From positions 32,001-96,000 of the forward strand of contig JAJRWI010000069.1 in assembly GCA_024276825.1 (NCBI GenBank): a DNA stretch of 64,000 nucleotides, written 5' to 3'. Position 1 is the first letter of the stretch, and every line of letters begins with the position of its first letter. The notes under the pieces were generated by a model that saw nothing but the letters and a program-made list of their open reading frames with translations, ran no database searches and was not told where the DNA came from. This DNA is from an archaeon (GTDB taxonomy: Archaea; Asgardarchaeota; Thorarchaeia; Thorarchaeales; Thorarchaeaceae). A program made the position numbers and the translations under genes. This document shows positions 9,901 through 26,934 of this stretch, piece after piece.

Positions 9901-11812
9901 AGCGACTGAACATCTCAAGATAATCGGAGATTGATGACATATTTGTTATTTGAAATGAATGGGCATATCTTGCAGTCTTTGCAATCCAGTAACTCCACAT
10001 GAGAGACGGAATTGGTTCCATGTTCTCAAATCCTACTTCAGACCTGCAGGCTTCGACAAAGTCAATCAGGCCAGCAGTGCTAGCCCCAATTTCAACAAGG
10101 CATGTGGCCACAATATCAGTATGAATTAATTTGCCAACTTGGTCCCACTTATCTCGACCAAAACCTCCTGAGGGTAATTGAACCGAAGTCAGCCATGAAA
10201 TCCCATTTGTTCTGTTCTCTTCGGCCAATGTACCCAAGACCGACATTGTTGTGAGAGCATTTGCAGTTCCTCTTACAATTTCAATAGACGGAGGAATTTT
10301 GTCAGTGTAAGAGCCATCTCCATTGGAGGTCTGATCAAGTATCCACTCTGTCAGTTTATATGGATCATTGTGAGATTTTCCCAGAATTTGCAATGATAGA
10401 ACATACTGAGCTGCATAGGAATTACTTGGCGACAGAGATGATGGATTGTATGATACACCTCCCCAGAAGTCGGGATTGGGAGTATCACCCCCATCTATTA
10501 CACAGTCCCTTAACCAAGACTCGAGTGAAACTGTGTCAATTGCGCTCAGACTGCCAGAATAATTCAATGATTCAAGGACATAATAAGTGACTGTAATCGA
10601 GTCTTCAAAACCACCTTCTGGCATTTGTTTGCTTGCGAGCGTATCTGCAAGTAATGAAATATTGAAACGTTTTGATCCTATGATTGACGCAATCCAAAGG
10701 CCATTTGCTATCGATGTGTTTGTCACTTTGCCATCGATCAAAGAAGTGTAGAAGTTAGCAGTGACTCCATCATCAAGGTAGAGTCGATCAAGTGCATTTT
10801 CAATCATTCCACTATTATTATCCAGCCATGAAATCCAGTCTTGACCATTAAGGACTTCATATGCAATATGCACAGCATGATATATGGCCTCAATTCTCGG
10901 GGTGTGAAAATAGGAGAAACCTCCTTCTACAACATCTGTGTGTGAGGCTTGTGCAGATCTGACAGTTATGGATGTAGAGGACTCTTTGAGTGTAGGGACA
11001 TAGGCCAATAGATTGACAAGTAAATCAATGCCAGACTCGGTCATTCTTGTCGGGCTTTCTGCAGAGAGTAGAAACATGTCGAGCGGCCACGAGTCATATC
11101 TCAGGACAGGAAGCCTTTCAGGAGCGTCTGCGCTAGTGAGATTCACTAGTCGTGAGTGTTCGGTTTGTGCGATGTCAAGTGGCAAAGCAACTTCATTTTC
11201 TGTGGTAATCATATCACCACTTGTGATTGTATTTGGATAGTAGAAAAAGACTGCCTTCTCATAAGCCGGTGTGGTGAATAGGGTGTTTGATGAGAAGGCA
11301 GTGTGGGAGGGAGAACCTCGATTTTTGAGCCTGTGCAATATCCATGCAGAGCGGCCCAAGAGTATCAGGGGAGCATCACATTGAAGAAGAGAGGAGAGGA
11401 GAGAGTTGGAAACCAAGGATCCATTGTCAGCTCCCATACTCGCATCAAGTATTATAGCTGGAGACCCAGAGATTACTGAGGCTGTGATCTCATCTGCAGA
11501 AATAATCTTGGTCACTATTCCTCGTGCTTCGAGAACCTTTGCAATTTCAAAGCCATGAGACGTAATTGATGTGTTCAATGCTTGTATGATTATATAGGGT
11601 GTAGCATCAATAATAATTCCAGGTGTTGCACTAGTCATTGTGTTCTCGACTTGTTTGGGCCTTGAGTCATCATATGAGAATAATGAGCGTAATTGATCGC
11701 TTGCAGTCGGTTGGGATGACAATAATATCAAGAGTGCGAAGGTAAGTGCAACAATCCATTTACTATTCATTAATTCACATATCCCCCATTGTTTTGATTG
11801 AATAATTCTCAA
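3986..11812 (-). CDS. Giant secreted, C-terminally anchored surface protein with prenyltransferase/squalene-cyclase-like repeats and an Ig-like repeat stalk
   Basis: Signal peptide (likely start MNSKWIVAL at 11770). QW-like repeats SKQMPEGGF, DQTSNGDGSY, SVQLPSGGF, QQCQASSGHF. Many TxxxG/WTPxxxGxY beta-sandwich repeats after ~aa 880. C-terminal TM followed by RKR. Confidence 0.8.
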   Translation of the reverse strand: MRIIQSKQWGICELMNSKWIVALTFALLILLSSQPTASDQLRSLFSYDDSRPKQVENTMTSATPGIIIDATPYIIIQALNTSITSHGFEIAKVLEARGIVTKIISADEITASVISGSPAIILDASMGADNGSLVSNSLLSSLLQCDAPLILLGRSAWILHRLKNRGSPSHTAFSSNTLFTTPAYEKAVFFYYPNTITSGDMITTENEVALPLDIAQTEHSRLVNLTSADAPERLPVLRYDSWPLDMFLLSAESPTRMTESGIDLLVNLLAYVPTLKESSTSITVRSAQASHTDVVEGGFSYFHTPRIEAIYHAVHIAYEVLNGQDWISWLDNNSGMIENALDRLYLDDGVTANFYTSLIDGKVTNTSIANGLWIASIIGSKRFNISLLADTLASKQMPEGGFEDSITVTYYVLESLNYSGSLSAIDTVSLESWLRDCVIDGGDTPNPDFWGGVSYNPSSLSPSNSYAAQYVLSLQILGKSHNDPYKLTEWILDQTSNGDGSYTDKIPPSIEIVRGTANALTTMSVLGTLAEENRTNGISWLTSVQLPSGGFGRDKWDQVGKLIHTDIVATCLVEIGASTAGLIDFVEACRSEVGFENMEPIPSLMWSYWIAKTARYAHSFQITNMSSISDYLEMFSRWSEYPDLVNITTHVPQEYASYISSTQYFDLSVWSQLFGVELTNACGFILDNAMRTSAISQIQQCQASSGHFRPMDSFIWTPSMQYSVAAIEALNLLDGLDSISYRTQLESAVMNEYQSGRWSSQSWTILPFAKKQSAIDYLSTRTALRLDLITTAMANEIASVIANRVQYDDLWALSRDVATIALLNSSFTISLDIFNISLIEDLLQNSFIDGWFNSTDFWQPVFTADVLEMVSILGLRLRLMKPTGQNIAITSVGYSHIGQGLSIDISINSTKVSHTVQVSAFNEIFKFDNVANSDTLIIQVPQTQDVLGSSNISIMLNDYGDCRAFARTEVNTTGSLNGSLEVFNSSALIGDMINSTVTWALDTGKPAGPTNLTVRVGNQSFYKEWYYYDQVSSFNIEIPTSDLTEGNYDLNVILDRAWCESLLISEPIVLNAPRPTYFVADSVVYSELSTSAIVNWSLHFQENGSFIASQTVNFEVYYGSTLVYSASDKSIEGVSTFNWTPDTRGTFTYRLLFSRNGTIESSEFSGDIIVSEPTRITWQNVESQNQYSNITVNLTLSTLSGENLSDEQILINVRSPTGAIIMDDYLITDINGQIEFTIYLGENGVYSINANFAGTLHLQFCDSNDNIVSWSSSNLQLTGIPSDTLVDQSYLIGARLLDSMNYSLSSETLILIITYLPSTQIINITLTTSQDGTIAYNWTPDTAGSYKIESIYEGSISRGSASIAKNTDTYIPLMLTVEVGTNLQVGIQSWIDVLATNHLSTPVTNILVNVTTQGLSISGLTDDDGHLNVSWTPDVRGSIIINTSSSRQLWYESASSINLVEVCESSALLIEWDGPLRAVDNATLQVQLVDSLGYPVFNMSISTQLFLDGEIFFDNTDITNEHGIIIISFTLSHPGTLSVISTFDSQDFLLSSTNQISKTVLGITEININPTSPLIQTSTRGIIISLINWQGVPLSNSEVSFSIRDSDETVIYSSELITDADGICVISYTFNNIGDFMITASYPGADLNAPAEIVQIQQVYVTPNFKLSVAPSVILGETLSIDTGILDKLGQYISGRNLTMSIYMNDTLVFQSVFLSNDGTTQTHWTPAARGLARIMIYHSPSFLYLENSTNVYISVLEMVSANLALSADNIDLFTSVEFVYQMAAESDVSNIQVDFALLGIDLLPVWSSTTITDENGTARMTYFANHTTGMLTLRVEPHEEYFTIGGSQETQLTVMTNCSLSVQFMPSPPSLGDDVIILISAHDDLGGIISGVSVTVWLSDPYGVLIKLGTWSNSINLVLENGAANLTFTPSVSGLYRVELQSQETTTVHSAYHESSHTVYCPINLNITLSNYDILVGQTVTIVVRMTDYWDSIMAGFDLTVEIIGPGTKTIGPVTLTTNSSGYVTWVVSINDQGFWTIIASFDGAGVYLSSNEADNIDARYGTLIHVQAQLDTVIASETVVSLSVLLTDSNDAPLEGFSLGYSIYHSEFGPVNGGLLMQSSNMPEKLNLTFPYMGNYSIIFIFNGTAHYHPSNTAIELFVFGTTTVSFESPKSFDRALNASVRIICLNEMGETIEPSQLNIEILLENGTHPIDVSSRLMSDNNWTGLSVFKLPVGQYHLSISVANTPTRIGTHGEFTFNITTVSKIMIQQASADGILGHEQYISLIITDSLDIPLDSVDVSISLYDPLGNEILGSPLSSVTKYETNDGVIEVSWTPTLTGNYSLVVSYEGNEFISSCDFQITTLSRYQTDMEVDVDWVFTFGNPVRATITLSSPTAKVSNVEIEVKAFLEGMCIIDTSIPTSFRGIATIQLHDLPAGLILLNFSFNGDSNFAPAYQTRMIKVQPIVDVFVAEVISPYLGSNCTVCLNISILGPDMSWTGLLSYKITRPDNRTQLGQIVVGSTGSISLTFHAEVIGVYSINLTISGIPAIATYHDTFNIVIESAPIPLMVDAATTPVFTGGLVLPLIGLFVRKRLNRIIESLPSDWDE

Positions 11813-13925: not shown

Positions 13926-14138
13926 TTAAACAGGCACTTCATCGGCCACTCTCTTAGTAATGGCTCGAATCACTTGTGAGAAGAGTGGATTTCTGCGTTT
14001 GCATTCTTCATGAACCATTCGCAAGAACTTTCTGCAGATCTCCAATAGCTCTCCGTCTGACTTTAGTAGAAAGCCTCTAACAGATATACATACATTACAG
14101 AGTTCATCATCTCTTAGTTTTGACCAATCGATTGGCAT
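13926..14138 (-). CDS. Small hypothetical protein (70 aa, MPIDWSKL...), last gene of the operon
   Basis: ATG at 14138 overlaps the FEN1 stop (TAATG coupling); Cys-containing helical sequence. Confidence 0.6.
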   Translation of the reverse strand: MPIDWSKLRDDELCNVCISVRGFLLKSDGELLEICRKFLRMVHEECKRRNPLFSQVIRAITKRVADEVPV

Positions 14139-15127
14139 TAAAACCAAACCTCCAGAGTTGTTTGATAAGTTCCGAATCTCTTCCATGTTCTGATTATCTC
14201 ACTAGTCAGGATTTCAGCCCTGTCCTCATTCATTACTACATTCAGAATCTTGGTTAGTCGTGAACTCAATGGCGAGCGAAGTTGCAGGTCGCTGGTGTTG
14301 ATAAATAACCGATTGACTTCATCAAAAGTTTCACGCGCACGAATAAACTCTTCGCGCTCACTCTGCAGAAAGCCAAGCGATCTTAAAACATCTTCAAGAA
14401 ACCCGAATCGTTTCAGCAGGATTGCGCCCTTGCGTGGACCTATTCCTTTGACACCCGGCGAGAAATCACAACCCGATAGAATTGCCAGGTCTCTTAATTG
14501 CTCAATGTCTAGGCCTATGGATTTCAACACTGAGTCCAATGTAGTATATTCAACCTCGTCTTTCGAATAACGAATTGATTTGGAAACATGAGGACTACCA
14601 AAGAGAAGTGCATCTACATCATTAGACAAACATGTTCCTGCAAAGCCATCCTTGCATAGTAGGGCTGCAGCCATCTCAGCCTCAGTTGGAGAAGTGATTG
14701 CTGGCACGCCAATTGCAGAACAAATATCCATGATATGGTATGCCGAGAAGTACCATCGCAGAGAAGGACTATCATGGAGACTCTGAACGAGAAAAATATC
14801 CCTTGGATCTTGAGTCCTAGAGAATTCCCTATACAGGTCATTTGCAGTTCGAATCAACTCAGGGTTGGGAGAACGCTTGAGATGTTCAGGGATTCCATCA
14901 AATATGAATACAGGCAGGATATTGCTGGCAAGAGCCTTCTTTATGAAGCCAAGGACAATTGAAACATGAATAGTCGAAATTCTATCTAGAGATTGGATGA
15001 TTCTGTTCTCGATTGAACGAATTCTCTTCATCAAATAGTTAGGGGCATCAATCGCAATCACTGCTGGGTGTATAGTATTGATCTTACCGACCTGCCAGGA
15101 GATGAAGTCCCAGTTCTTAACACCCAT
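14138..15127 (-). CDS. fen: FEN1/XPG-family structure-specific nuclease with C-terminal PIP box
   Basis: MGV...IAIDA, VFIFDG, EAEMAAA, SNDVDALLFG, H2TH LSGCDFSPGVKGIG; PCNA-binding QTTLEVWF. Confidence 0.9.
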   Translation of the reverse strand: MGVKNWDFISWQVGKINTIHPAVIAIDAPNYLMKRIRSIENRIIQSLDRISTIHVSIVLGFIKKALASNILPVFIFDGIPEHLKRSPNPELIRTANDLYREFSRTQDPRDIFLVQSLHDSPSLRWYFSAYHIMDICSAIGVPAITSPTEAEMAAALLCKDGFAGTCLSNDVDALLFGSPHVSKSIRYSKDEVEYTTLDSVLKSIGLDIEQLRDLAILSGCDFSPGVKGIGPRKGAILLKRFGFLEDVLRSLGFLQSEREEFIRARETFDEVNRLFINTSDLQLRSPLSSRLTKILNVVMNEDRAEILTSEIIRTWKRFGTYQTTLEVWF

Positions 15128-15832
15128 CTATACTACCTCCACCCCACTCTTTCTTATTCTTACAACAATTGCAGGGGGTATTCCATGAATAGGACTTTTT
15201 TCAGCAAGGATTCTATAGTAATCCCTTGTTCCCTCAAGAAGCCCCACAAGAAGGGACCAGTCGATATCGTGGGTCAGAACATTTCCACCTATGGGGATTA
15301 TCTTTCCAGAGTCCCAATTGCGTTTTGAGTGCCCCGTTAATAGAATGTGAATATCCATCGAATTGGCAAGTCCCCTCAAGCATTCAAGAGTGTTGAAGAG
15401 TTTGCGTTGCCTTTCTTTCGATCCTGGATTTCCTGATAGGTTCAGAAGATTTGTGAGGTTATCGATTATAAGAAGGAAGAGTAATTCGAATTCTCTTAAT
15501 GATTCTTTGAGCAGTTGGATATCCTCAAGATTTAGAATGTTGGTAAAATGAACCAATCTCATTACTTTCTCAGATTGAGAGGAGTTCTTGCACATGCTTC
15601 TTATTATCCTAGGGTTGTAATTCTTTCCTGAGTCAAGGAACACCACAGACTTTCCTGCCTTTGCAACTTGAACTGCAAGGTTGTGGGCCAACAATGTTAG
15701 AGGTGCTTTGTTAGGTCCGTGAATCAATGTGATCTGATGACTTTGTAGTTGGAATATGCTGTTAAGAACATGAGGCTTCAATGAGATGTTAAGATCATCA
15801 TCAGTTCTTAGTCTATCAAGTGGAATGGCCAT
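15128..15832 (-). CDS. RadA/Rad51 paralog (RecA fold) with degenerate Walker A
   Basis: ITLIHGPNKAPLT (no GKT), VVFLDSG, Walker B LLIIDNL, RQRKL, PIGGNVLTH. Confidence 0.8.
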   Translation of the reverse strand: MAIPLDRLRTDDDLNISLKPHVLNSIFQLQSHQITLIHGPNKAPLTLLAHNLAVQVAKAGKSVVFLDSGKNYNPRIIRSMCKNSSQSEKVMRLVHFTNILNLEDIQLLKESLREFELLFLLIIDNLTNLLNLSGNPGSKERQRKLFNTLECLRGLANSMDIHILLTGHSKRNWDSGKIIPIGGNVLTHDIDWSLLVGLLEGTRDYYRILAEKSPIHGIPPAIVVRIRKSGVEVV

Positions 15833-16787
15833 TCTCTCTCACCCCAGCAGGAATCATTCGAGTATCGCGGTTGATTAGTAATGAACTGATCACATTTGTT
15901 GGCAGCCTTGATACATTGTAGCCTGATACAAAGACATCGGGACATACTGCAATCAGTCCCCCAATTCGGGGAAACAATGTGACATAGTTTGCACCTTCAG
16001 TCAGAAGAACATCAATCAATTTCTGCTCCGGAATGATACAATATCGCCCATGTGCAAGTTCACCCTCATTCTCAATGAGTGGAAGAGCAAGAACAAGCTT
16101 GAGTAGGATTTGACTCCCAATCTCGTAAGGTATCTTGTTTCTTTGGAGCAGGTTATTGATTGTAGCATGCCAGTCCTCGAGATGTTTGGCTCTCAATACC
16201 AAGGCATCAAATTCATCAAGAATTGTCATTGAAACCGGAAGCATCGGACGGTCTCTCATAAGCTGAATAATCTTCATTTCATACTCTTTAGGGATTATGA
16301 ACAGGGCCAATGATGAAGTGCTAATTCTGAGCCAGCTAAAAGTATGCCCTTCCCAAACTGAGTAGAGTTTCATAACGAGAAAGCTGATAAGCGGATAAGA
16401 CCCAAATAACTGGCCCAATATCGAGATTGAACTCTGGGGGTCTTGAACTAATCGCGCTAGCAGGCCGACAAGTGCAACCGCTGCAATCATTGGGACTATT
16501 CCAAAAGGAAGTATGATCAAAGCACTTGCTATTGCCAAGAGAATGACACTTGCCCATGCGATGATGCTAATTAAATTAAACAATAGACCATCTTTATCAT
16601 CAAATTTCCCTGAAATTCGTAACAAGGCTACTGAACAGACTATCAAAACAATTAGAGGAAGATAATCGCCCAGTCTAGCAGCAATCACAATTGAGGACAC
16701 ATATCTGATTAGATGCCCACCCATGAGAATAGCAAAAGCTGCTGCAAATGATAGCCACATCAGACGAAAGCAGTACTTACTGAACAA
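15816..16787 (-). CDS. Membrane protein (~4-5 N-terminal TM helices plus soluble domain)
   Basis: Hydrophobic stretches over aa ~5-145; overlaps both neighbours in the operon. Confidence 0.7.
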   Translation of the reverse strand: MFSKYCFRLMWLSFAAAFAILMGGHLIRYVSSIVIAARLGDYLPLIVLIVCSVALLRISGKFDDKDGLLFNLISIIAWASVILLAIASALIILPFGIVPMIAAVALVGLLARLVQDPQSSISILGQLFGSYPLISFLVMKLYSVWEGHTFSWLRISTSSLALFIIPKEYEMKIIQLMRDRPMLPVSMTILDEFDALVLRAKHLEDWHATINNLLQRNKIPYEIGSQILLKLVLALPLIENEGELAHGRYCIIPEQKLIDVLLTEGANYVTLFPRIGGLIAVCPDVFVSGYNVSRLPTNVISSLLINRDTRMIPAGVRENGHST

Positions 16788-17413
16788 TTCAGATCGCCCT
16801 CCTGTAAGGCACCATCAGGCCTGATAATGACAGAACCATTCTCTTGTATGAGAGTCTCTGCTATCTTATTTCCATTTACCAAGATGCTAGAGATACCAGT
16901 AGGATCTCTTCTAATTTCAAGGTCATTATCACAGAATCTCCTGATGATATCGTAGAGGAGAGGGACATTGTGATCATTGAGAAAACGCATCTCATTGATT
17001 GCAAGAATCTGAAGGTTGGAATTCATAACCAGTGAGGAAAGAGTTGGCATTACCTCTTCTAACATTTCTCTGCCCCATAATGTGGGGTCTTTTCGTCCCA
17101 AGTCCACAGTTCGTGATATCGAGTCTATGACAACTAGCCTTGTGTTGCTGTTGATCAATTTGGGTAGTCGTTGTATCTGCTCTAATGCCTGCCCATGAGC
17201 CATGACGACTGAAACATTTTCTCTCTTGCCATTATTCAGTGATATGTTGTTTCTAAGGGGGTTTAGGAATGACCATTTACCATCCGTGTTCATCCATAGT
17301 ACATGATGATTCACAGTTAGTGGGGCTGCAATGGCAATTGCGAAAAGTGTCTTTCCAGAGCCTGCATCACCCCATACATGAGTCAGGCCTTTCAAATTCA
17401 GCATCATCCGCAA
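16760..17413 (-). CDS. RadB-like short RadA/Rad51 paralog
   Basis: Walker A GDAGSGKT, WMNTD, Walker B LVVIDS, AINE; lacks the N-terminal HhH domain. Confidence 0.82.
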   Translation of the reverse strand: MRMMLNLKGLTHVWGDAGSGKTLFAIAIAAPLTVNHHVLWMNTDGKWSFLNPLRNNISLNNGKRENVSVVMAHGQALEQIQRLPKLINSNTRLVVIDSISRTVDLGRKDPTLWGREMLEEVMPTLSSLVMNSNLQILAINEMRFLNDHNVPLLYDIIRRFCDNDLEIRRDPTGISSILVNGNKIAETLIQENGSVIIRPDGALQEGDLNCSVSTAFV

Positions 17414-17416
17414 ATA

Positions 17417-19045
17417 TCACACCCCCTCCCCAATAGTTGCTTTCGATGTTGGCTTGCTGGATGGGTCGCTTTCTCTGTCATCTTCAACTGCACCTGCGTT
17501 TCTAATTTCGGCTAATACATCTTCAATACTGTCAAGTTCAGAGCCACCTTCAGATGCTGGTTGATCATCGGACATAGTTCCACCATTCTCTGTATCACTT
17601 GCCACAATGACTGGCAAATCGCCCTCCATCCAAGACCTAGTCTGGGCACTAATAGCTTGGATTGATTTCTCCTCGATGATGTCATCAGGGGTCTCCAGCT
17701 CTTCCTCAATTGCTTGCAGAGTATCTCGCAATGACCTGTCATTAAGAACATCATATACTCTATCACGAGCCTCAGGATCGATTAATCCTGCATTGAATAA
17801 TGAACAACTAATCTGGCCTATTATTGCAATGAGCCTTTTTTCAGTCAGGGGCGAAGTGAAATGAGAAGTGATATCGCTATAGATCAATGCAAGTTCTGCT
17901 TCTTCATTGCCATCAAGAGTATATAAAGTTCGGAAGAGACCCAAGAACTTGTCCAAGCCAGTATCGCCTGATGTACTGTGACTATCAATCAGGTTTGGCG
18001 CCGCAAACACACATTCATCTAGAATTGATGACAATAACAAAACAGTCCTCTCAATCTGTCCCGAGGATATTGACTCAGCTGATGAGATTAACAGCGGGGA
18101 TATTATGAAACTCATATCTCCTATGGCCTTCAGAATGGTCTTGTTGTTCGCAATTGCCTGATCAATGCGATAAGAATCAGATAGAGATGCAATGCATGTC
18201 AGTTCATCATTAAAGTTGTTCCAGAACGATGTGATGCGCTTACGGGAGTCCATTAGAAGCCAAGAGCCAAATGCACTGCTTGCAATTGCTGAAACAAGTG
18301 GAATGACGAATAAACTTGATCGATAGATAAATGCTGTAACCAGTGAGAGCAATCCAATTATGCCGAAGATGATTCCAAGAGCTCCATACCATCCCCTAGT
18401 TATTCCTGCTTTCAAATAGTCCCACTTTTCAGGAATAACATTTTCATAAAGATCAGATAGAAACGCTCTATTATCGCTGTTAATCGCCGGCACAAAGGTT
18501 TCTCTGTTGACAACTCTTCGAGAGTCAGTCAACCAAGAGAGATCAAAGGATGGTCTTACATCATCTATCACAACATAGACAGTCTTGGTCGGGTAAATGG
18601 CCGACCGCTTCATACTTTTGTTAGACACAAAGAGGGGGATTTTGACATTACCCAAGGGTATTCGGATTTTGAACTCATCGAGATTTATGTCCAAGTCCAC
18701 ATCAGATAATGTTTCATGAAGATTCCTGCTGATTACATCCAGCACCCTTGATTTCAGAGCAAGCACTGATCTACCGAATTGAGCTCTTTGAAGATCAAGC
18801 ACATATGTGATGTCAACATGCACTCCGCGTGTAGAAGGCATTCGGTTAAGCCTTACAGCAAGAATCAGCCCATTGTCATAAACGTTTACTCGATAGCCCA
18901 ATCGTTTTAATGATTCTTCAAGGTCATAGAGTTCGGTGTTTATGACCTCATTCTCATTTTCTAGGGCTTGGTCTTCATCAGCCCTTTCAGTTTTCTCTTT
19001 AATTTTCATTTTCAGAAGCCTCCAATTTTCCGAATCTTCTATCAA
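17417..19045 (-). CDS. Hypothetical membrane protein (2 central TM helices, acidic C-terminal tail)
   Basis: TM segments WYGALGIIFGIIGLLSLVTAFIY and LFVIPLVSAIASSAFGSWLL; 542-aa ORF within the operon. Confidence 0.7.
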   Translation of the reverse strand: MIEDSENWRLLKMKIKEKTERADEDQALENENEVINTELYDLEESLKRLGYRVNVYDNGLILAVRLNRMPSTRGVHVDITYVLDLQRAQFGRSVLALKSRVLDVISRNLHETLSDVDLDINLDEFKIRIPLGNVKIPLFVSNKSMKRSAIYPTKTVYVVIDDVRPSFDLSWLTDSRRVVNRETFVPAINSDNRAFLSDLYENVIPEKWDYLKAGITRGWYGALGIIFGIIGLLSLVTAFIYRSSLFVIPLVSAIASSAFGSWLLMDSRKRITSFWNNFNDELTCIASLSDSYRIDQAIANNKTILKAIGDMSFIISPLLISSAESISSGQIERTVLLLSSILDECVFAAPNLIDSHSTSGDTGLDKFLGLFRTLYTLDGNEEAELALIYSDITSHFTSPLTEKRLIAIIGQISCSLFNAGLIDPEARDRVYDVLNDRSLRDTLQAIEEELETPDDIIEEKSIQAISAQTRSWMEGDLPVIVASDTENGGTMSDDQPASEGGSELDSIEDVLAEIRNAGAVEDDRESDPSSKPTSKATIGEGV

Positions 19046-21209
19046 TCAACAGTTTCAATTGACGAGCATTCTCAGACACCTGTACTAGTCCACCATGTTG
19101 GGCTATGACAGATATGCAATACAGCAGCCACTTGGCATTCTCAAGAATGAATATCAGATCCCCATAGGAGATCGAGTACATCTTTGAGATGTCATGCAGG
19201 GGTATTGAAGTGGTTGCAACCTGCCCAATGAATTGTTCAAAATCAATCTCGAGCTTTTTGCCAGTTTCAAGTCGAGTCAAATGATGAACAAGCCAGAATA
19301 ATTGAGAGTTATTCTCGATGATTGGCAATATAACAATCATCTCACGAAAAGTATTCGTGCGTAAATAGAGTTTATTTACAAGACGTCCAAGATGAGTTGG
19401 TCTCAGTTTACCATCAATCGAACCCTCGACTAGACCCAACCTTATCAGACTTCTAGCTGGGCTTGATTCACTTAGCGCTAGGGGGATGATATAATTAGCA
19501 TTGTCGGGATGCTGTTGAACTGCGGACACACCAAGTGAAACCAGATGCGGGCAGAGAATGCCATTCTTCATTAACGGTTGTCCGCATGAGCAGGTTGGTC
19601 CTTCGATTAGATTATTGGAGGAGGTACGGATTGAGAATCTGCAAGTCACACTGCCTCCCGGAATGCCCGAAACCAGTCCCCCAATAACGGTGGGACTGAT
19701 CTCGCGAATCTCCACTCGTCCTAGAACACCCTCTTTTGCCGCTTTTAGAGTCGATGATATACTATGGCGTTCTATGGCCTTAATTGCAGTGATTTCACCA
19801 AGTTCGAGTATCCGAGATGGAGAGTTGATATCACGAACACTGGTAAATGCAAGAAATGAGTTTCCAAGAAAGCCATGTTCTATTGAGTCAAGAGTCGATT
19901 CACCAACAAAGTCAAGAGCGACGAGCAATTGGTCGGTGAGGTCATTTGCAATCTGACTGTGAATCTGTTCATATTTTGGAATCAGAATTATATTTCCTGC
20001 ATCATCCTGAACATTGTCAAAATATGACTCAACGATTCTTTGAGCTTCGCCCCTGCTGCCAGCAAGAATAATGCCAAAGCCCTTTAGATCCTTTCCAGGC
20101 CGTCCTGCTCTTCCCAGCATTTGATGAACAAGATTTGCAGGCAACAATTGAGTGCTGACACCAGGCTGGTTCACATTAGTAATCACAACTGTTCTTGCGG
20201 GCAGGTTCATTCCAGCAGCAAGAGTTGTAGTTGCGCTGATGACCTTAATGAGACCTCTTTCAAACAGGTCTTCAATAAATAAGCGAGTTTTGGAATTCAT
20301 TCCCGCATGATGGAATGCAACACCATCATGGATCAGTGGAGTCAAATCAGGAGCAATCTGAGAACCCCAATTAGACACACCACCGACTTCACTATCGAGC
20401 TCTATTTTTTCCCTACGGGTCAGTTGTCTGCCAACTTCATTAGCAATACGTTTCGCTGTTGCTTCGGCCTCTCGTCTGGTTCTGTTGAAGATTATCAATT
20501 GGCCATTGCTCTGAACGGTAGTCATTATGATTTCCCGAGCCAGACGGGTTCGGTCTGAAGTCGAAATGACCCTATTAACAAGTGGTACTGGTCGTTCTGT
20601 ATGAGTAATGAGCTTGCAGTCAAGCCATTCAGCAAGCTCATCTGGAGCAGCAATTGTTGCTGATAGCGCAATAATCTGAACATCCGATATTATACGTTTC
20701 AACCGAATAATCAGGCTTTCAAGACGTGATCCTCTCTTGCCTTGAGAGAGAGTCTGTATCTCATCAATCACAACTGCACCAATCTCAGATAGCCAAGAGG
20801 TTCTGTGGCGAAATAACGAGTCGGCCCTCTCATATGTCATCACTATGATGTCATTATCTGCCAGTTCATCACCATTCATGTAATAATCGCCCGTTGAGAG
20901 AGCAATCTTGATCTGCTCGCTGGCATACTTTGCCCATAGCTCATTAGCAATCTGTGTAGCCAATGCTCGTAATGGGACAAGGTAAATGCCTTTGGAACCG
21001 TCAATTACTGCACGCAACAGGGCCATTTCACCAATGAGGGTCTTGCCTGAACCAGTGGGAGAGCAAATCATTAGGCTCTCGCCATCAAGCACTCCTTCCT
21101 CAATCGCTCGCACCTGCACTCCTCTGGGAGTGACCCCTATTGTACTTAGTATTCTTTTGATCTCTTGAGCAGTGTCAATTACGGCCACCAACTCACACCC
21201 CTCCCTCAA
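18999..21209 (-). CDS. Hel308/HelQ (Ski2-like) SF2 helicase with inserted SWIM zinc finger
   Basis: SPTGSGKT, VPLRALA, DEIQ, LSAT, FHHAG, TLAAGMNLPAR, QMLGRAGR; CSCx10CPH SWIM motif. Confidence 0.9.
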   Translation of the reverse strand: MREGCELVAVIDTAQEIKRILSTIGVTPRGVQVRAIEEGVLDGESLMICSPTGSGKTLIGEMALLRAVIDGSKGIYLVPLRALATQIANELWAKYASEQIKIALSTGDYYMNGDELADNDIIVMTYERADSLFRHRTSWLSEIGAVVIDEIQTLSQGKRGSRLESLIIRLKRIISDVQIIALSATIAAPDELAEWLDCKLITHTERPVPLVNRVISTSDRTRLAREIIMTTVQSNGQLIIFNRTRREAEATAKRIANEVGRQLTRREKIELDSEVGGVSNWGSQIAPDLTPLIHDGVAFHHAGMNSKTRLFIEDLFERGLIKVISATTTLAAGMNLPARTVVITNVNQPGVSTQLLPANLVHQMLGRAGRPGKDLKGFGIILAGSRGEAQRIVESYFDNVQDDAGNIILIPKYEQIHSQIANDLTDQLLVALDFVGESTLDSIEHGFLGNSFLAFTSVRDINSPSRILELGEITAIKAIERHSISSTLKAAKEGVLGRVEIREISPTVIGGLVSGIPGGSVTCRFSIRTSSNNLIEGPTCSCGQPLMKNGILCPHLVSLGVSAVQQHPDNANYIIPLALSESSPARSLIRLGLVEGSIDGKLRPTHLGRLVNKLYLRTNTFREMIVILPIIENNSQLFWLVHHLTRLETGKKLEIDFEQFIGQVATTSIPLHDISKMYSISYGDLIFILENAKWLLYCISVIAQHGGLVQVSENARQLKLLIDRRFGKLEASENEN

Positions 21210-23493
21210 CTGTTAGCGCCTGACGAAGTGCCATGGTACCTTTCAGAGTAATGCGATAGTTCGAATAGTTCACTCCATTGAGAAACTCGTGTCCACGCAA
21301 GATCATGTTTGCCTGTTCCAGTTGAATAAGCAGGCTTTCAATATCATCAATCTCTACGCCACTAGTTTGAATGAACTTCTTGAGCGCCTCAACTGTGAGG
21401 GGCTCGTACCGTTCGAGAAGCTGTAGAACTTGAGCTGCAAGATTAGATCTCTCACCAGTGACAAATGCAAGTACACCTGATTCTGCCGCCATTGATGGTT
21501 GTTCTGAAGTTCCAATCATACTCAAGCGTCTGGACGTGATGTCTGACTCAGAGGGAGTGTGCAACTTTAATGGTGGACCAAGCTTTAAAGGAACACATGT
21601 ATCAGGGTTCGAATCTACGAGAAGTGCATGCTCCTTTTTCATGGTGCGCAGATAAGAGCTCTCACGTGATGATATTCGTGCCTTACTATGAATCGAGTCG
21701 ACCACCGACAGGCCTAACATATCAGACATGACCTTGATGTCTTGAGAACTCTTCAGCCTGAAGGCAAGGCAAGAACTGAACAGATCTAATAGATGTTGAA
21801 GTTCCGATGGATTTCTTATGCTTAACATTAGAGGGCCACGCCTGAGCATGTCAGTGATCAATCTATGAGTCCATAAACCCCGACTACGGTCATGCAGTTT
21901 CAGCAGAAGATTTAGAGGTTCGTCTAGAATTATTACGACATTCTTGTCCTTTGTGAGGGCTGATATCTTTATCATGAAAAGGTCCCATGCAAATGTGTCA
22001 AGTTCATTGGAGTTCAAGTCTATTAGCATGACAGTAAGTGGGAACTCGGTCAACTTAGCCATCTTTGCAGTCTGGATACCATAAAAGGCACGAGCCCCGA
22101 TTCCGCGATGGAGAACACGGACTGCCTCAAACCCATCAAGTGAGGCCCTGGAGGGAGAGTCATCCGCTGTTATCGTGGGTTGGTCTTCATTGTGGAGAAG
22201 AGTGATGTCTGCTACAGTTCCTCCGTTCAATGCCACAGCTCTGCTTAGGGCATCCTCAAAGTGTGATGCAGAACTGAGTGCTGAAGAGCATATCACTTCA
22301 AGTGCGGTTTTCAATCTGGGCACAAACTCGTGCCTTGGAATGTTCTCAGCATCAACGGGATTCAAGACAAAGTCTTTTCCCAGGGTCAGACCAAGTGAAT
22401 TGTTGGTCAATGATAATAGAGACATTGCTCTTCTGTTATTTGTCAAAATTATCACATGCTTTCCGGACCTCAATATCTGAGGAATCAAAAGACTGTAGGC
22501 ATGAAATCTATCAGACCACTCACCACCAGTAATTAGAACTCCATTCAAGAGGTCATCATCTGTGAAGCCTACTATAGGCCCAGTCTGCAATGTTTCGGGA
22601 TTGATTATCACACCCAATTGATAGTCGCACTGCTTGGCACGAACGGGCGAGATGAATTCGCCAGGAATATTGGCCCCCACTTCCGGAGCGAGTTCTGAAA
22701 CCAATTGAATGGTCCATTCTGATAACTCACGACCGAGAGCATAGAATCGTGGTGTACCATCTAATATCCTGCATTCATTCACCCATTTGGCAAGCCGCTT
22801 GCCGCTCATTCTCTTCAGCCCGTGCTCAGGAATGGAGCCTCGAACTGCAGAGTCAAAGTATCGAGTTTCGTTCTCATTCAATGTTTGACCAAGTATTGTA
22901 AGACCTGTCTTCCACAAACCACCCTTCGAAATAATGATGTCTGATGGTGCCCTATGAAAACGCCTACTAAAAAATGGCAGTGGAAAACGCTTCAGTTTAT
23001 TTCTGTTGACAATTACTGCATTGTTCTCAGGTACCAAAGAAACAGTGAATGAGAAGCCAGAACTTGTATCAAGTGCTCTAATAAGCTTGGACAGGTTTCC
23101 TGCTAGGCGGGGAGGTTGCTTAAGTTCTAGGCCAAGTAAAAGAGTCTGAGGACCTGCACCCTCGAACTCTACCTCTCTTTTTCTAGGACCAAGGAATATC
23201 TCAGACACTTTCAAGTTGCATAGGCCAGCCTCTTGAAGCTTGGACTCGTCAGACCTCATTCGAAGACTAAATAGAAACATAGTGATTGCAGTTGCAAATA
23301 ATAGGACAACAACATGATTTAATGTTATAAAGATGAAACTATAGATGGATGCTACAAGCAATAGATCGAAGAGTGGGTTGCTTCTGATTCGTCTATCGCA
23401 CAACCGAGCCTTTCCAGAGGGTCTTAGTTGCATCCTGCCCTCATAGGTTATCTCGTGAGTGTCTATCAATGACGAGTTCCATCTAGATATCAT
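21193..23493 (-). CDS. Membrane-anchored HerA/FtsK/VirB4-like P-loop protein with degenerate Walker A and C-terminal wHTH
   Basis: Two N-terminal TMs. GVLITGGEWSDR at the Walker A position, FVLNP motif, Walker B IILDEP, HerA-like 'CLAFRLKSSQDIKVMSDMLG'. C-terminal 'YRITLKG' wHTH. Confidence 0.65.
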   Translation of the reverse strand: MISRWNSSLIDTHEITYEGRMQLRPSGKARLCDRRIRSNPLFDLLLVASIYSFIFITLNHVVVLLFATAITMFLFSLRMRSDESKLQEAGLCNLKVSEIFLGPRKREVEFEGAGPQTLLLGLELKQPPRLAGNLSKLIRALDTSSGFSFTVSLVPENNAVIVNRNKLKRFPLPFFSRRFHRAPSDIIISKGGLWKTGLTILGQTLNENETRYFDSAVRGSIPEHGLKRMSGKRLAKWVNECRILDGTPRFYALGRELSEWTIQLVSELAPEVGANIPGEFISPVRAKQCDYQLGVIINPETLQTGPIVGFTDDDLLNGVLITGGEWSDRFHAYSLLIPQILRSGKHVIILTNNRRAMSLLSLTNNSLGLTLGKDFVLNPVDAENIPRHEFVPRLKTALEVICSSALSSASHFEDALSRAVALNGGTVADITLLHNEDQPTITADDSPSRASLDGFEAVRVLHRGIGARAFYGIQTAKMAKLTEFPLTVMLIDLNSNELDTFAWDLFMIKISALTKDKNVVIILDEPLNLLLKLHDRSRGLWTHRLITDMLRRGPLMLSIRNPSELQHLLDLFSSCLAFRLKSSQDIKVMSDMLGLSVVDSIHSKARISSRESSYLRTMKKEHALLVDSNPDTCVPLKLGPPLKLHTPSESDITSRRLSMIGTSEQPSMAAESGVLAFVTGERSNLAAQVLQLLERYEPLTVEALKKFIQTSGVEIDDIESLLIQLEQANMILRGHEFLNGVNYSNYRITLKGTMALRQALTVEGGV

Positions 23494-23780
23494 GGGCCCC
23501 TCCTAATCATCGATTGCGAGAGGATCTCAAGAATACGGCTGAAATGCCTTACATGATTCTCATCACCATCCCAGATGAACAGCTTGCGATGGATAATTGA
23601 GATTGAAGGCATATTATTCTTTGACGATTCTCCATGAGCGACAATTTTGGGTAGTTTAACCAGTACTCTCCAGCTATAACCATGACCTGATTGCAGTACT
23701 GACATCAGTTGATCAATGTCGAGAAATGGCGAGATATCAAGTGCTTCACTAGCATTTGACTTCAATCTCAACACCTCCAT
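23490..23780 (-). CDS. Small hypothetical protein
   Basis: 96-aa ORF; its stop overlaps the next ATG (ATGA). Confidence 0.55.
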   Translation of the reverse strand: MEVLRLKSNASEALDISPFLDIDQLMSVLQSGHGYSWRVLVKLPKIVAHGESSKNNMPSISIIHRKLFIWDGDENHVRHFSRILEILSQSMIRRGP

Positions 23781-24339
23781 TAACCATGAGCATCATCTGA
23801 TCGAGTGTGGCCTTAGTGATGGGAGTATGAGGATAAGCAGCTCTCATCGCACCCTCCAGAACATAAGACACAATCTCAATTTTCTTCACTAACGAGTCAA
23901 GAAACCTCCCCACCCCAAATATACGGGAAGTTCTTCCAATAACCATCATTCCAACGGTAGTACTCGAAGAGCTCATTGGTCTTACCACTACAAACCTGAG
24001 CTCAAACTTCGCCCAATCTTTGGCGTGAAGACTCATTGCCTCAAGAACCTTCGCTGAAGAATGTGACAGGTCTATGCCAATTGGTATACTACTGAATATC
24101 CGTGCGCTATATACTTCGATATGCCAAGGACGAAGATTTACCAGCATTTTGCCGCCCTTGTCCCAAAATATCACAGAACGACCGCCATGCTTCCTGTAGA
24201 TATAGGCCACTAGAAAGAGGCCAGTTAGTCCCAAGGAACTCTCAATAAGTCCCATTATACTGCTCAATATCAGAGAGCGGAGAAGTAATGCAGAAGCAAT
24301 AAAACCAAGTAGATATTTCGCAGAGAAAGTCCTCGACAT
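23749..24339 (-). CDS. Hypothetical membrane protein (2 N-terminal TMs)
   Basis: Hydrophobic N-terminus; start abuts the xpd stop. Confidence 0.65.
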   Translation of the reverse strand: MSRTFSAKYLLGFIASALLLRSLILSSIMGLIESSLGLTGLFLVAYIYRKHGGRSVIFWDKGGKMLVNLRPWHIEVYSARIFSSIPIGIDLSHSSAKVLEAMSLHAKDWAKFELRFVVVRPMSSSSTTVGMMVIGRTSRIFGVGRFLDSLVKKIEIVSYVLEGAMRAAYPHTPITKATLDQMMLMVNGGVEIEVKC

Positions 24340-26301
24340 TCATATCGACCCCCTGTTGCCGCTAATGAATGTTTCAATAGCAGACACCATCTCATCCTTA
24401 CTCTCAAAGGGCCAAATATCGGAGATAATGTCAGATCCGAAAACATTCAGATAATTGTGAAATCGTTTATCGAAGAGGATCACTATTCCTCTATCTGTGG
24501 GGCTACGCCGTAGGCGGCCAATTAGTTGAGCAACTCGGCGTATTGACGGGACTACTATGGAATAGTAATAGCCCGAACCAGATCCATACCGTTCGTCAAA
24601 CCATAACTGAAGTGCCCTATGAAAACTAGTAGGTGGAGAAAAGGGTATACCAACACCAATGATGAGGTTAATCTGTGATGAACCATCCTTTACTAGATCG
24701 ATACCCTCGCTGAACTTCCCGCCATAGACTGCGAAGATTGCATGCGGTGTTTCATCAACTGCCCTCCGCAGATCATCCAATTGTGCCTTGGGATCCTCTA
24801 CAATTCTGCTTCTGTGCCCGCAGTCAATGTTATAGCTGAGAACCTCATTCATTATTCTATAGCTTGGGAATGCAACCAGTGCGCTCTTATTAGCTGGAGT
24901 AGTCGTTAATGCAACGCTTATTCGTTCTGCAATGGCACGCCAGAGTTCAGAACCTCGTTCGGTATACTTGGTGGTCAAGTGCTTGTCAAGCAATACTAAT
25001 CGAGTTCCTTTCTCATAAGGGCTCGTGAGATGTGCTGTACGGGCACTTGGAATCCCAAGGAGTGATGCATAATGATTTAACGGATTAAGAGTGCCAGACA
25101 TCAAGAGAGCTGACCGGGCACCTCTCAGTATTGGTGTTGTGAATCCCATTGCATTAAGAGGACGGGCTTTTAACACTGCATTCTCAATTGAGACCGATCT
25201 ATCCCATGAACGTGATAGTTCTATTGTGATGTGCCAGTCATTACTCAGAGTCGCCCGATGTCCAGCCTGAAGAATATCAAACAATCGTTCCAGTGGAGTG
25301 CTCGAATACGACTCGCCATCCGTTGGATCAGAATTGTCTTGATTTCTATAGAGCAATTGAGCAAGCTCATCCATATCCACAAATCGGGGCAATATCTCCC
25401 AGCGATTAAGAGCATGTTCGTTCTTGTTCCGGATCTTGTCGAGATTCAGCATGAATGTTTCCCAGAGAAAATCAATGACATCGAATAGCCACGAGGCATT
25501 CGTAGTCACATCGAGAGCATCACGGTTCTCTTTCAACCATAGAAGATCCTTGCCTGAAATCTGGGCAGATTCTACCTCCAGAACATGATCAGCAAGGTTG
25601 TGTGCCTCATCAACAATGAGGTCTATGTCTGACAGATCGACATTTAGAGCCCTCAGAAACGCATTTCTAACTCGCTCTTGAAACAAGTATGAATAGGGAC
25701 CAATTACCACCCTGCTATTGCGTGCTGACCACCGAAGAACTTCGTAGGGACAATAGCCAGATGAGAATGAGAGGTTCTCAGCGGTTTCTTGGGTGACAAC
25801 GTCGCCATTCAAAGTATTGACAAGGTCATCCCTAGCGGACTCTCTGAGCTTCAGATTGCCTGAGTTCGAGTTCCCAATAAACATGTTATAATAATAGTTG
25901 CATTCACCTGAACGTATCATTGCAGCACAGCCACGGGTGAATCCTGCCACAGAAGTCTGCTGAATCTCAGCCTTCATAGGACAGACATGGATTCTCGAGA
26001 CCATGCTTGTTGCTGTCAGATGAAATGAGAGTTTCTTCGCTGCTTCTGTTTCATTCAACACACGAAGTTCGGACTCAAACACGCAGGCCTGAGAATGAGT
26101 TCGTGTGAGTACTATTAACTTGGACTCGGGATCATTTGCACGTGCTGCAAAGTAACCCGAGAGAACCGCAATTGTCTTGCCAACACCACAATCTGCTGAG
26201 AGCAAGCCCACTGTCTTCTGCTTAAATACCTGTGTGGCAAAGCGAATTGCATGGTCTTGATGAGGACGGGGTTTGTATGGAAACCATGCCATTGCATCCA
26301 T
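24340..26301 (-). CDS. xpd: XPD/Rad3/DinG-family Fe-S 5'-3' DNA helicase
   Basis: Q motif FPYKPRPHQ, DCGVGKT, four Cys (HVCP, RGCA, GECN, YCPY), DEAHNL, MSGTL, FSEGID, QLIGRLRR, LFDKRF. Confidence 0.93.
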   Translation of the reverse strand: MDAMAWFPYKPRPHQDHAIRFATQVFKQKTVGLLSADCGVGKTIAVLSGYFAARANDPESKLIVLTRTHSQACVFESELRVLNETEAAKKLSFHLTATSMVSRIHVCPMKAEIQQTSVAGFTRGCAAMIRSGECNYYYNMFIGNSNSGNLKLRESARDDLVNTLNGDVVTQETAENLSFSSGYCPYEVLRWSARNSRVVIGPYSYLFQERVRNAFLRALNVDLSDIDLIVDEAHNLADHVLEVESAQISGKDLLWLKENRDALDVTTNASWLFDVIDFLWETFMLNLDKIRNKNEHALNRWEILPRFVDMDELAQLLYRNQDNSDPTDGESYSSTPLERLFDILQAGHRATLSNDWHITIELSRSWDRSVSIENAVLKARPLNAMGFTTPILRGARSALLMSGTLNPLNHYASLLGIPSARTAHLTSPYEKGTRLVLLDKHLTTKYTERGSELWRAIAERISVALTTTPANKSALVAFPSYRIMNEVLSYNIDCGHRSRIVEDPKAQLDDLRRAVDETPHAIFAVYGGKFSEGIDLVKDGSSQINLIIGVGIPFSPPTSFHRALQLWFDERYGSGSGYYYSIVVPSIRRVAQLIGRLRRSPTDRGIVILFDKRFHNYLNVFGSDIISDIWPFESKDEMVSAIETFISGNRGSI

Positions 26302-26316
26302 TGCAGCGACAATCAG

Positions 26317-26934
26317 TCAGGCTCCCCCCATTCTAATGCATGACTCGGTACGATGCACTCTGAAACGTATTGAAAAATAGGAATATAGGAGATTATAGAA
26401 CTTCATTAATAATGTTGGTGAGTCATAGAATCGCTCTTTTCGAGCCATCCTCTCAACTATTCTCTTGCTAAATCCGTTCTTCTTTGCAGTTTCCCAGAAG
26501 TAGACCTCTATATCCTTCATTGTTGACAGATGATGGACGATTGTCTTCACTAGGAGATTAGTCAATAGTTCAATGGCCTTTCTTGCATTATGCGGTAAAT
26601 TAGATGCTCTTATGCTCATGGGCAAATAGACTGGTACACCATCAAGACTATCGTAATAAATCTCCCGTGGCACACCCTTGCTGCTTCGTAAGGTTTCCAG
26701 CAGTGAGAGTATTCTTGGAAGTTGGGGCAAGATTGGTTTTGATATGTCACGATCGCGCCACTCAATCTTCGTCAAGACGTGCAGCTCTGGGTCAGGCTCT
26801 TGTTCAGCATCAATTGCAAGTACAGTTATTCTATGATTAGTGTCTCTCAATTGAAGGTTAATCAGATTCAGAATTGAGATCCATGAGTGTGAAGTATCTC
26901 TTACAAATGCATCATGTTTCACCGCAACACTCAA
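26317..26934 (-). CDS. Hypothetical protein
   Basis: 205-aa ORF with 4-bp overlap to the upstream gene. Confidence 0.6.
   Translation of the reverse strand: MSVAVKHDAFVRDTSHSWISILNLINLQLRDTNHRITVLAIDAEQEPDPELHVLTKIEWRDRDISKPILPQLPRILSLLETLRSSKGVPREIYYDSLDGVPVYLPMSIRASNLPHNARKAIELLTNLLVKTIVHHLSTMKDIEVYFWETAKKNGFSKRIVERMARKERFYDSPTLLMKFYNLLYSYFSIRFRVHRTESCIRMGGA

What the first reader, a model, noticed from the sequence alone, without database searches (positions are those of the whole stretch)
18999..21209. Hel308/HelQ helicase with an internal SWIM zinc finger and no domain 5
Seen: after the RecA domains there is an insert ending in CSCGQPLMKNGILCPH (CxC-xn-CxH, ~19545-19592). Motif II is DEIQ rather than DExH. 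The protein ends just after a ratchet-like helix (LLIDRRFG), with no recognisable HhH/RAR domain. Known: CxCxnCxH is the SWIM signature. Eukaryotic SWS1/ZSWIM7 (Shu complex) is a SWIM protein that binds a RadA-like paralog (SWSAP1), HELQ binds the RAD51-paralog complex BCDX2, and Hel308 domain 5 is autoinhibitory. Inference: a HelQ-SWIM fusion encoded beside two RadA paralogs could be a Rosetta-stone link between the HELQ and Shu modules.
Basis: partly seen in the sequence, partly recalled or inferred. Interest (0 to 1): 0.85.

Follow-up and report, generated by a model that had tools for sequence, protein, structure and literature searches.

The report
Asgard zinc-finger Hel308-like helicase paralog
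This Thorarchaeota (Asgard) archaeon has a spare copy of the DNA-repair helicase Hel308 with a real SWIM zinc-binding domain spliced into it, encoded in a conserved block of extra recombination and membrane genes, but nothing here shows that it links the human HELQ and Shu repair modules.

Summary
Observation confirmed. The 736-aa Hel308-like helicase has a ~115-aa SWIM domain inserted inside its winged helix, motif II DEIQ, and no domain 5. The four zinc ligands are the insert's only invariant residues; its best structural match is the ZSWIM8 SWIM domain.

It is not the genome's Hel308/HELQ counterpart: a canonical five-domain Hel308 lies elsewhere and scores twice as well against POLQ. It belongs to an Asgard-wide paralog clade (18 GTDB families checked) with two old subclades. 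DEIQ is mostly Thorarchaeota-specific; domain 5 is lost in subclade A but often kept in B.

In Thorarchaeota it sits in a block with a second RadA, two RadA paralogs, FEN1-like and XPD-like copies, a Walker-A-less HerA/VirB4-like protein and membrane proteins; 11 of 58 genomes lack three block genes together.

The HELQ-Shu Rosetta-stone reading is weak. The SWIM persists in loci with no neighbouring paralog and in an ATP-dead copy, it resembles SNF2-type SWIMs, and a separate stand-alone SWIM protein fits the SWS1 motif better. Best reading: the block's dedicated, unbraked recombination helicase with an accessory zinc lobe.

The scan found this before in other Asgard genomes; I found no paper describing it.

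The parts
18999..21209 (-). Hel308-like SF2 helicase with internal SWIM domain (subclade A); likely start GTG 21191, 730 aa
20010..21152 (-). RecA1 + RecA2 helicase core (aa ~20-400); motifs Q, I, Ia, II, III, IV, V, VI intact
   Evidence: Pfam DEAD and Helicase_C; motif table
20754..20765 (-). Motif II, DEIQ (aa 149-152)
19839..19955 (-). Winged-helix domain 3, N-terminal part (aa ~419-457)
   Evidence: alignment to canonical Hel308; model
19470..19838 (-). SWIM domain inserted in the winged helix (aa ~458-580): two helices, four strands, zinc knuckle, two helices
19545..19592 (-). Zinc-ligand motif C540, C542, C553, H555
   Evidence: only invariant columns in 26 diverse inserts
19356..19469 (-). 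Winged-helix domain 3, C-terminal part and wing (aa ~581-618)
19029..19355 (-). Ratchet domain 4 (aa ~619-727); no domain 5 follows
   Evidence: Pfam Helicase_dom4_arc aa 670-720
17417..19045 (-). 542-aa conserved protein with a predicted membrane segment, unknown family
16760..17413 (-). 217-aa RadB-like RadA paralog, Walker A and B intact; the type also found beside the helicase in other Asgard classes
   Evidence: TIGR02237 E 4e-9
15816..16787 (-). 323-aa protein with four predicted membrane segments
15128..15832 (-). 234-aa RadA/Rad51 paralog with Walker A lost; detected only in Thorarchaeota loci
   Evidence: Pfam Rad51
14138..15127 (-). Second FEN1/XPG-family nuclease
21193..23493 (-). 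766-aa membrane-anchored HerA/TrwB/VirB4-like protein, Walker A degenerate in all aligned copies
23490..24339 (-). Two small conserved ORFs (96 aa; 196 aa with a predicted membrane segment)
24340..26301 (-). Second XPD/Rad3-family helicase
26317..27377 (-). 205-aa conserved ORF and 148-aa protein with two CxxC pairs (zinc-ribbon-like)
27377..28420 (-). Second, block-specific full-length RadA (below the RadA equivalog cut-off; housekeeping RadA is elsewhere)
28417..29636 (-). Two conserved ORFs (162 and 253 aa) heading the block
3986..11812 (-). 2608-aa probable cell-surface protein that follows the block in 7/7 Thorarchaeota genomes checked

Best explanation
An Asgard-specific paralog of Hel308 that serves as the dedicated helicase of an accessory recombination block. 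SHOWN by sequence or model: intact SF2 motor, a SWIM zinc lobe inserted into the winged helix, loss of domain 5, tight co-inheritance with a private RadA, RadA paralogs, a FEN1-like nuclease, an XPD-like helicase and membrane proteins. INFERRED from the Hel308 family: it loads on single-stranded DNA, moves 3' to 5' using ATP, strips proteins and unwinds short duplexes; without domain 5 it lacks the built-in brake and probably the annealing gate, so it should favour unwinding over annealing. INFERRED, weaker: the SWIM lobe is an accessory domain acting in cis, placed in the winged helix as the arch is in Mtr4/Ski2, and reshapes substrate or partner binding there; its partner is not necessarily a RadA paralog. 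The block most likely processes single-stranded DNA at the membrane (for example imported DNA) and hands it to its own RadA for recombination.
For: All helicase motifs intact across subclade A; model pLDDT 89 with Hel308/Hjm as best folds. Four ligands invariant in a 31%-identity alignment; fold match to ZSWIM8 residues 114-214, Z 6.5, rmsd 3.7, 89 aligned, next hit Z 4.0; atlas TM 0.53-0.62 to SWIM proteins. Separate clade from Hel308 (SH-aLRT 93 and 98). Block syntenic in 20/20 Thorarchaeota loci, genes overlapping or abutting. Helicase, 234-aa paralog and ATPase-like gene are all undetected in the same 11 of 58 genomes; 5/5 tested also lack the block's RadA and XPD copies. Housekeeping Hel308, RadA, FEN1 and XPD are encoded elsewhere. 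Domain 5 as brake and annealing gate: PMC13623763. Arch inserted in the winged helix of Mtr4/Ski2: PMC10946056.
Against: No activity, expression or phenotype data. Neighbouring genes go missing together in incomplete assemblies, so the co-absence is not proof of an accessory block. DNA import rests only on an ATPase-like protein that has lost Walker A and on unassigned membrane proteins. The review notes that domain 5 deletion did not change nanopore translocation. Several SWIM helicases lie outside any such block. Z 6.5 is middling by the tool's own scale.
Confidence: 0.55

Rival explanations
1. Rosetta stone: the SWIM lobe docks a RadA paralog as Shu2/SWS1 docks Shu1/SWSAP1, so this protein is a fused forerunner of the HELQ-BCDX2 and Shu modules.
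For: A short RadA paralog is the commonest soluble neighbour across Asgard classes. The 234-aa paralog has lost Walker A, as yeast Shu paralogs have degenerate ATPase sites (own knowledge). The insert has no net charge (mean +0.4), compatible with protein binding. Shu2 uses its SWIM domain to bind the Rad51 paralog Shu1 (PMC5727457); HELQ binds BCDX2 (PMC13623763).
Against: Not the HELQ-like copy by similarity or tree. SWIM kept in 9 loci with no paralog detected nearby and in an unlinked ATP-dead copy. A separate stand-alone SWIM protein in 105/121 Asgard genomes has a fixed 15-residue spacer and CxHxxA in 21/24, against 7-19 residues and 12/26 in the insert (Ser in the window). Insert and stand-alone protein align only over the 32-column knuckle, probability 61%. 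SWIM-helicase fusions have arisen independently: SNF2-SWIM and bacterial Hel308-like proteins with a C-terminal SWIM.
Confidence: 0.15
2. General chromosomal repair: the block is an alternative damage-induced recombination operon, with the membrane genes merely tethering or co-regulated, and no DNA transfer involved. The SWIM lobe replaces the DNA-binding face of the winged helix.
For: Every identifiable gene is a repair or recombination paralog. The HerA/VirB4-like protein lacks Walker A so cannot be assumed to pump DNA. The insert sits just before the winged-helix recognition helix, which is shortened in the model. The ATP-dead paralog has a conserved basic SWIM loop.
Against: Housekeeping copies of each enzyme exist already. 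Membrane and giant surface proteins stay linked across lineages. The subclade A insert is not basic.
Confidence: 0.22
3. RNA-directed or defence helicase (like ASH-Ski2, Brr2 or HamB), with the link to recombination genes incidental.
For: ASH-Ski2 lacks domain 5, carries a zinc finger and unwinds RNA; the authors tie Hel308's DNA preference to domain 5 (PMC10946056). Patchy presence is typical of defence genes. Brr2 scores as high as Hel308 with the family profile (two cassettes summed).
Against: Closest sequences and folds are Hel308/Hjm. Gene order with RadA and nucleases is kept across Asgard classes. The tree broadly follows host families.
Confidence: 0.08

Closest known systems
Archaeal Hel308/Hjm (PDB 2p6r, 2zj2, 2va8)
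   Same: RecA1-RecA2-winged helix-ratchet order, helicase motifs, best sequence and fold matches.
   Different: SWIM domain inside the winged helix, no domain 5, DEIQ, separate clade, far below the equivalog cut-offs, and co-exists with a canonical Hel308.
Eukaryotic HELQ and POLQ helicase domain
   Same: Same Ski2-like family; genomic link to RadA paralogs recalls HELQ-BCDX2.
   Different: HELQ/POLQ keep domain 5 and an uninterrupted winged helix; canonical Hel308 is the closer sequence (229 vs 110 bits). No tree with eukaryotic sequences could be built.
Shu2/SWS1/ZSWIM7 (Shu complex)
   Same: CxC-xn-CxH zinc motif; RadA/Rad51 paralogs in the neighbourhood.
   Different: Shu2/SWS1 are small stand-alone proteins with CxHxxA; here the SWIM is a helicase insert with Ser at that place, and Asgard genomes have a separate stand-alone candidate.
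SNF2-associated bacterial SWIM domains and ZSWIM8
   Same: Same extended SWIM fold; SWIM fused to an SF2 motor.
   Different: There the SWIM is terminal or in an E3 ligase adaptor; here it is internal to a Ski2-like winged helix.
Mtr4/Ski2 arch insertion
   Same: Accessory domain inserted into the winged helix of a Ski2-like helicase (PMC10946056).
   Different: Unrelated fold (arch/KOW vs SWIM); RNA helicases; same insertion site not tested.
Ced/Ted DNA-import systems of Thermoproteota
   Same: Chromosomal block with a HerA/VirB4-like protein and small membrane proteins, tied to recombination.
   Different: The ATPase-like protein here lacks Walker A; homology of the membrane proteins to CedA/CedA1 not tested; Ced loci as I recall them do not carry private RadA, FEN1 and helicase copies.

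Membership tests
Hel308/Hjm | Intact SF2 motifs I-VI in two RecA domains | tested here: met
Hel308/Hjm | DExH motif II | tested here: not met
   DEIQ; DExQ in 49/50 Thorarchaeota homologs, DExH in 45/51 other representatives. Catalytic D and E kept.
Hel308/Hjm | Uninterrupted winged-helix domain 3 | tested here: not met
   ~115-aa insert; HTH_61 hit in canonical copy only
Hel308/Hjm | Ratchet domain 4 | tested here: met
   Pfam PF21280, 28 bits vs cut-off 27, C-terminal half only; conserved Trp
Hel308/Hjm | HhH domain 5 with RAR motif | tested here: not met
   present in subclade B members
Hel308/Hjm | Orthology: falls in the archaea-wide Hel308 clade and passes equivalog cut-offs | tested here: not met
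Hel308/Hjm | ssDNA-dependent ATPase, 3'-5' unwinding, annealing | not testable with these tools
   needs purified protein
SWIM domain | CxC-xn-CxH after beta strands, followed by a helix, conserved | tested here: met
SWIM domain | Profile match to PF04434 | tested here: met
   8/26 inserts match, best E 1.4e-7; homolog over cut-off; the window's own insert is under the cut-off
SWIM domain | SWIM fold | tested here: met
   ZSWIM8 Z 6.5, rmsd 3.7, 89 aligned; atlas TM 0.53-0.62
SWIM domain | Binds zinc | not testable with these tools
   needs metal analysis
Shu2/SWS1 | Small stand-alone SWIM protein | tested here: not met
   insert in a 730-aa helicase; a stand-alone SWIM gene exists elsewhere
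Shu2/SWS1 | CxC-xn-CxHxxA motif (PMC6316741) | tested here: not met
   Ser in place of Ala in the window; Ala in 12/26 inserts, though common in Thorarchaeota orthologs
Shu2/SWS1 | Sequence or structural match to Shu2/SWS1 | tested here: inconclusive
Shu2/SWS1 | Binds a Rad51/RadA paralog through the SWIM domain | not testable with these tools
   needs pull-down or two-hybrid
HELQ/POLQ orthologous group | Groups with HELQ/POLQ in a tree | not testable with these tools
   no eukaryotic sequences could be retrieved; similarity proxy favours canonical Hel308 but is confounded by rate
Ced/Ted DNA import (for the block) | VirB4/HerA-like ATPase with intact Walker A | tested here: not met
   fold family suggested; Walker A degenerate
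Ced/Ted DNA import (for the block) | CedA/VirB6-like channel and CedA1/VirB2-like pilin | not tested
   membrane proteins have no Pfam family; not folded

The most novel reading that the evidence does not exclude
The helicase is the motor of an undescribed Asgard membrane-linked DNA uptake and recombination machine, and its SWIM lobe recruits the neighbouring RadA paralog, so that a helicase-SWIM-paralog unit working like HELQ-BCDX2 and Shu existed in the archaeal relatives of eukaryotes.
Probability: 0.15. Interest if true: 0.82.

Novelty: new variant of a known kind. Interest (0 to 1): 0.5.

Why it matters
It adds an apparently undescribed branch to the archaeal Ski2-like helicases: the 2024 survey (PMC10946056) and the 2026 Hel308/HELQ review (PMC13623763) never mention SWIM in their main text. 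Natural versions with and without domain 5, plus an ATP-dead copy, give a ready series for testing what domain 5 and a SWIM domain do on a helicase; SWIM function in prokaryotes is largely untested. Published trees place HELQ/POLQ beside unspecified Asgard sequences, so knowing that Asgard genomes hold two or three Hel308-like clades matters for tracing HELQ, POLQ and HFM1. If the block moves DNA between cells it would bear on how Asgard archaea exchange genes.

Tried and rejected
Complex prediction of the winged helix-SWIM-ratchet half with both RadA paralogs and zinc gave no verdict (score 0.00); it is not used as evidence either way. Shu2/SWS1 did not appear in sequence or fold searches with the insert, nor with the stand-alone SWIM profile; such absences exclude nothing. 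Foldseek on the insert gave no significant hit. Two papers on SWS1 evolution were not held, so calling the stand-alone protein SWS1-like rests on the motif in PMC6316741 and my recollection of ZSWIM7. Rejected: frameshift or split domain 5 (orthologs end at the same place); DEIQ as a sign of a dead enzyme or as a family trait (D and E intact, DExH in most other lineages; Suv3 uses DEIQ, own knowledge); a 'proto-meiotic' link to the adjacent topoisomerase VI genes (adjacent in 0/7 other genomes). Correction: P0105 was labelled a pseudo-helicase in my trees but has intact motifs. Subclade A was labelled after seeing the first tree; the longest branches, including the ATP-dead copies, were left out of the second tree; the root rests on one ASH-Ski2 sequence.
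Full report
**1. The observation.** The minus-strand ORF 18999-21209 encodes 736 aa; the database call begins at GTG 21191 (730 aa). Pfam finds DEAD, Helicase_C and the archaeal helicase domain 4, and no HhH domain. The best solved relatives by sequence and by fold are Hel308/Hjm (model pLDDT 89). CxC-x10-CxH lies at aa 540-555, nt 19545-19592; it appears in 0.025% of shuffles and in 53 of the 54 proteins returned. Motif II is DEIQ and the protein stops after domain 4. All three points are confirmed.

**2. Anatomy.** Alignment to the genome's canonical Hel308 shows a net ~115-aa insertion inside winged-helix domain 3. In 26 diverse inserts (31% mean identity) only the four ligands are invariant. 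The insert folds confidently (pLDDT 89). Its best solved match is ZSWIM8 residues 114-214 (Z 6.5, rmsd 3.7, 89 aligned; next hit 4.0). Its nearest predicted models are bacterial SNF2-linked and stand-alone SWIM proteins (TM 0.53-0.62). Pfam SWIM matches 8 of 26 inserts and passes the cut-off in one homolog, though not in the window protein. It is a SWIM domain. All motor motifs are intact.

**3. Family.** The genome is a Thorarchaeota one (names). It also encodes a canonical five-domain Hel308, an ASH-Ski2-like protein and a second SWIM-insert protein whose Walker A, Walker B and motif VI are degenerate in 6/6 Thorarchaeota copies. The insert-bearing helicase was verified by sequence in 18 GTDB families of the phylum, and the profile matches 183 of 268 genomes at least 85% complete (a few weak matches may be ordinary Hel308). 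Named members are Thor-, Loki/Prometh-, Hel-, Hod-, Heimdall-, Baldr-, Odin- and Jordarchaeia; none named is non-Asgard, but several representatives carry no name. With the insert left out, the SWIM helicases form one group (SH-aLRT 93) apart from archaea-wide Hel308 (98), and split into subclade A (92), which includes the window and lacks domain 5, and subclade B (91), which often keeps domain 5 with its RAR motif. Baldrarchaeia and Thorarchaeota carry one of each, so the split is old. DExQ is found in 49/50 Thorarchaeota homologs, whereas 45/51 other representatives have DExH. So the three oddities have different ages: SWIM insertion oldest, domain 5 loss next, DEIQ last. Bacterial Hel308-like proteins with a C-terminal SWIM are a separate fusion.

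**4. Neighbourhood.** The gene lies in a run of 16 same-strand, overlapping or abutting ORFs: a second RadA, a zinc-ribbon-like protein, a second XPD, a HerA/TrwB/VirB4-like membrane protein without Walker A, the helicase, two RadA paralogs (217 aa with intact Walker motifs; 234 aa without Walker A), a second FEN1-like nuclease and membrane proteins. The order is the same in 20/20 Thorarchaeota loci as far as each reaches, and a giant surface protein follows in 7/7. Among 58 genomes of the family, the helicase, the 234-aa paralog and the ATPase-like gene are all undetected in the same 11; five of these were tested and also lack the block's RadA and XPD. That fits an accessory block, but missing contigs would look alike. 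In other Asgard classes the partners are shuffled but recur: a short RadA paralog within about 9 kb in 8 loci, the ATPase-like gene in 10. Nine loci of 12-20 kb have no short paralog detected, and four of them (L009, L015-L017) plus L093 have none of the block genes.

**5. The Rosetta-stone claim.** HELQ side: canonical Hel308 keeps the HELQ/POLQ winged-helix Pfam and domain 5 and scores 229 bits against POLQ; the window protein scores 110. This is a similarity proxy, confounded by rate; I could not obtain eukaryotic sequences for a tree. PMC10946056 reports HELQ/POLQ branching with Asgard sequences without saying which. Shu side: the genome has a stand-alone 128-aa SWIM protein, found in 105/121 Asgard genomes and encoded beside a phosphoesterase-like gene (and, in some genomes, an Lhr-like helicase), not in the block. 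It has a fixed 15-residue spacer and the CxHxxA motif given for Shu2/SWS1 (PMC6316741) in 21/24 copies; the insert has 7-19 residues and Ala in 12/26. The two share only the knuckle. The SWIM survives intact where no paralog is adjacent and in the ATP-dead copy. The analogy to HELQ-BCDX2 remains attractive as 'works like'; descent is unsupported.

**6. Mechanism.** Most likely (0.55) the protein is the block's own 3'-5' DNA helicase. Domain 5 is described as a brake on ATPase and helicase activity and as the annealing gate in POLQ (PMC13623763), so its loss should give an unbraked, unwinding-biased motor (inference). The SWIM lobe is an accessory domain in the winged helix, comparable in position to the Mtr4/Ski2 arch; its neutral charge and poor surface conservation leave its ligand open. 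The block's make-up suggests processing of single-stranded DNA at the membrane before strand exchange by the private RadA (inference). Rivals: ordinary back-up repair (0.22), SWS1-like paralog docking (0.15), RNA or defence role (0.08).

**7. Novelty.** No held paper has Asgard, Hel308 and SWIM together, and the two most relevant papers have no mention of SWIM in their main text. Subscription literature was not searchable. The scan itself noted this family and block in other Asgard genomes; my reading was recorded before I saw those notes and agrees with them. Verdict: a real, conserved new variant of a known helicase kind; interest 0.5.

Noticed in passing
L043:3857-6190 (+) = G000:C7:17856-20189; L101-L105: ATP-dead SWIM-insert Hel308 paralog: Walker A, Walker B and motif VI degenerate, SWIM loop conserved and basic; present in most Thorarchaeota genomes including those lacking the block; unlinked. 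Odinarchaeia copies (P0130, P0145) are partly degenerate.
   Followed up: partly
L046:1501-1887 (+) = G000:C36:20444-20830: Stand-alone 128-aa SWIM protein (CxC-x15-CxHxxA), in 105/121 Asgard genomes, divergent from a phosphoesterase-like gene and near an Lhr-like helicase; candidate SWS1/ZSWIM7 counterpart.
   Followed up: partly
P0167, P0171, P0199, P0217: Hel308-like helicases with domain 5 and a C-terminal SWIM; one cluster is from Aromatoleum evansii. Independent SWIM-helicase fusion.
   Followed up: partly
L021:9235-11898 (+): Helarchaeota subclade A helicase has a ~150-aa unrelated C-terminal extension in place of domain 5.
   Followed up: no
L012:13200-16904, L011:1-2789, L019:520-4353: In Loki-type genomes the Walker-A-less HerA/VirB4-like protein is a ~1250-aa fusion near the subclade B helicase; L012 also has a Hef-like helicase and the zinc-ribbon gene.
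   Followed up: partly
L006:6779-9009: Run of small membrane genes (325, 159, 116, 135 aa) beside the ATPase-like gene; the 116-aa one looks pilin-like by eye (CedA1/VirB2-type lead, untested).
   Followed up: no
window:31783-35957 (-): Topoisomerase VI A-type gene with a long Lys-rich and HhH-like N-terminal extension (709 aa), next to a probable B subunit; the genome has further TopoVI A-like genes (C45, C49). Adjacency to the block is not conserved.
   Followed up: partly
window:12250-13920 (+): 556-aa ORF on the opposite strand inserted between the block and the giant surface protein gene; a homolog lies on the other side of the block in G389.
   Followed up: no
P0119: 2694-aa protein with 12 matched stretches to the N-terminal half of the winged helix-SWIM profile but no zinc motif; unexplained.
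   Followed up: no
P0113, P0143, P0146, P0179, P0183: Subclade-B-like or related helicases in which the CxC-xn-CxH pattern was not found (degenerate or longer spacer).
   Followed up: no
G000:C63 about 25500-26642 (+), left of the window: Probable housekeeping RadA lies about 6 kb outside the window's left edge, with an acidic N-terminal tail.
   Followed up: partly
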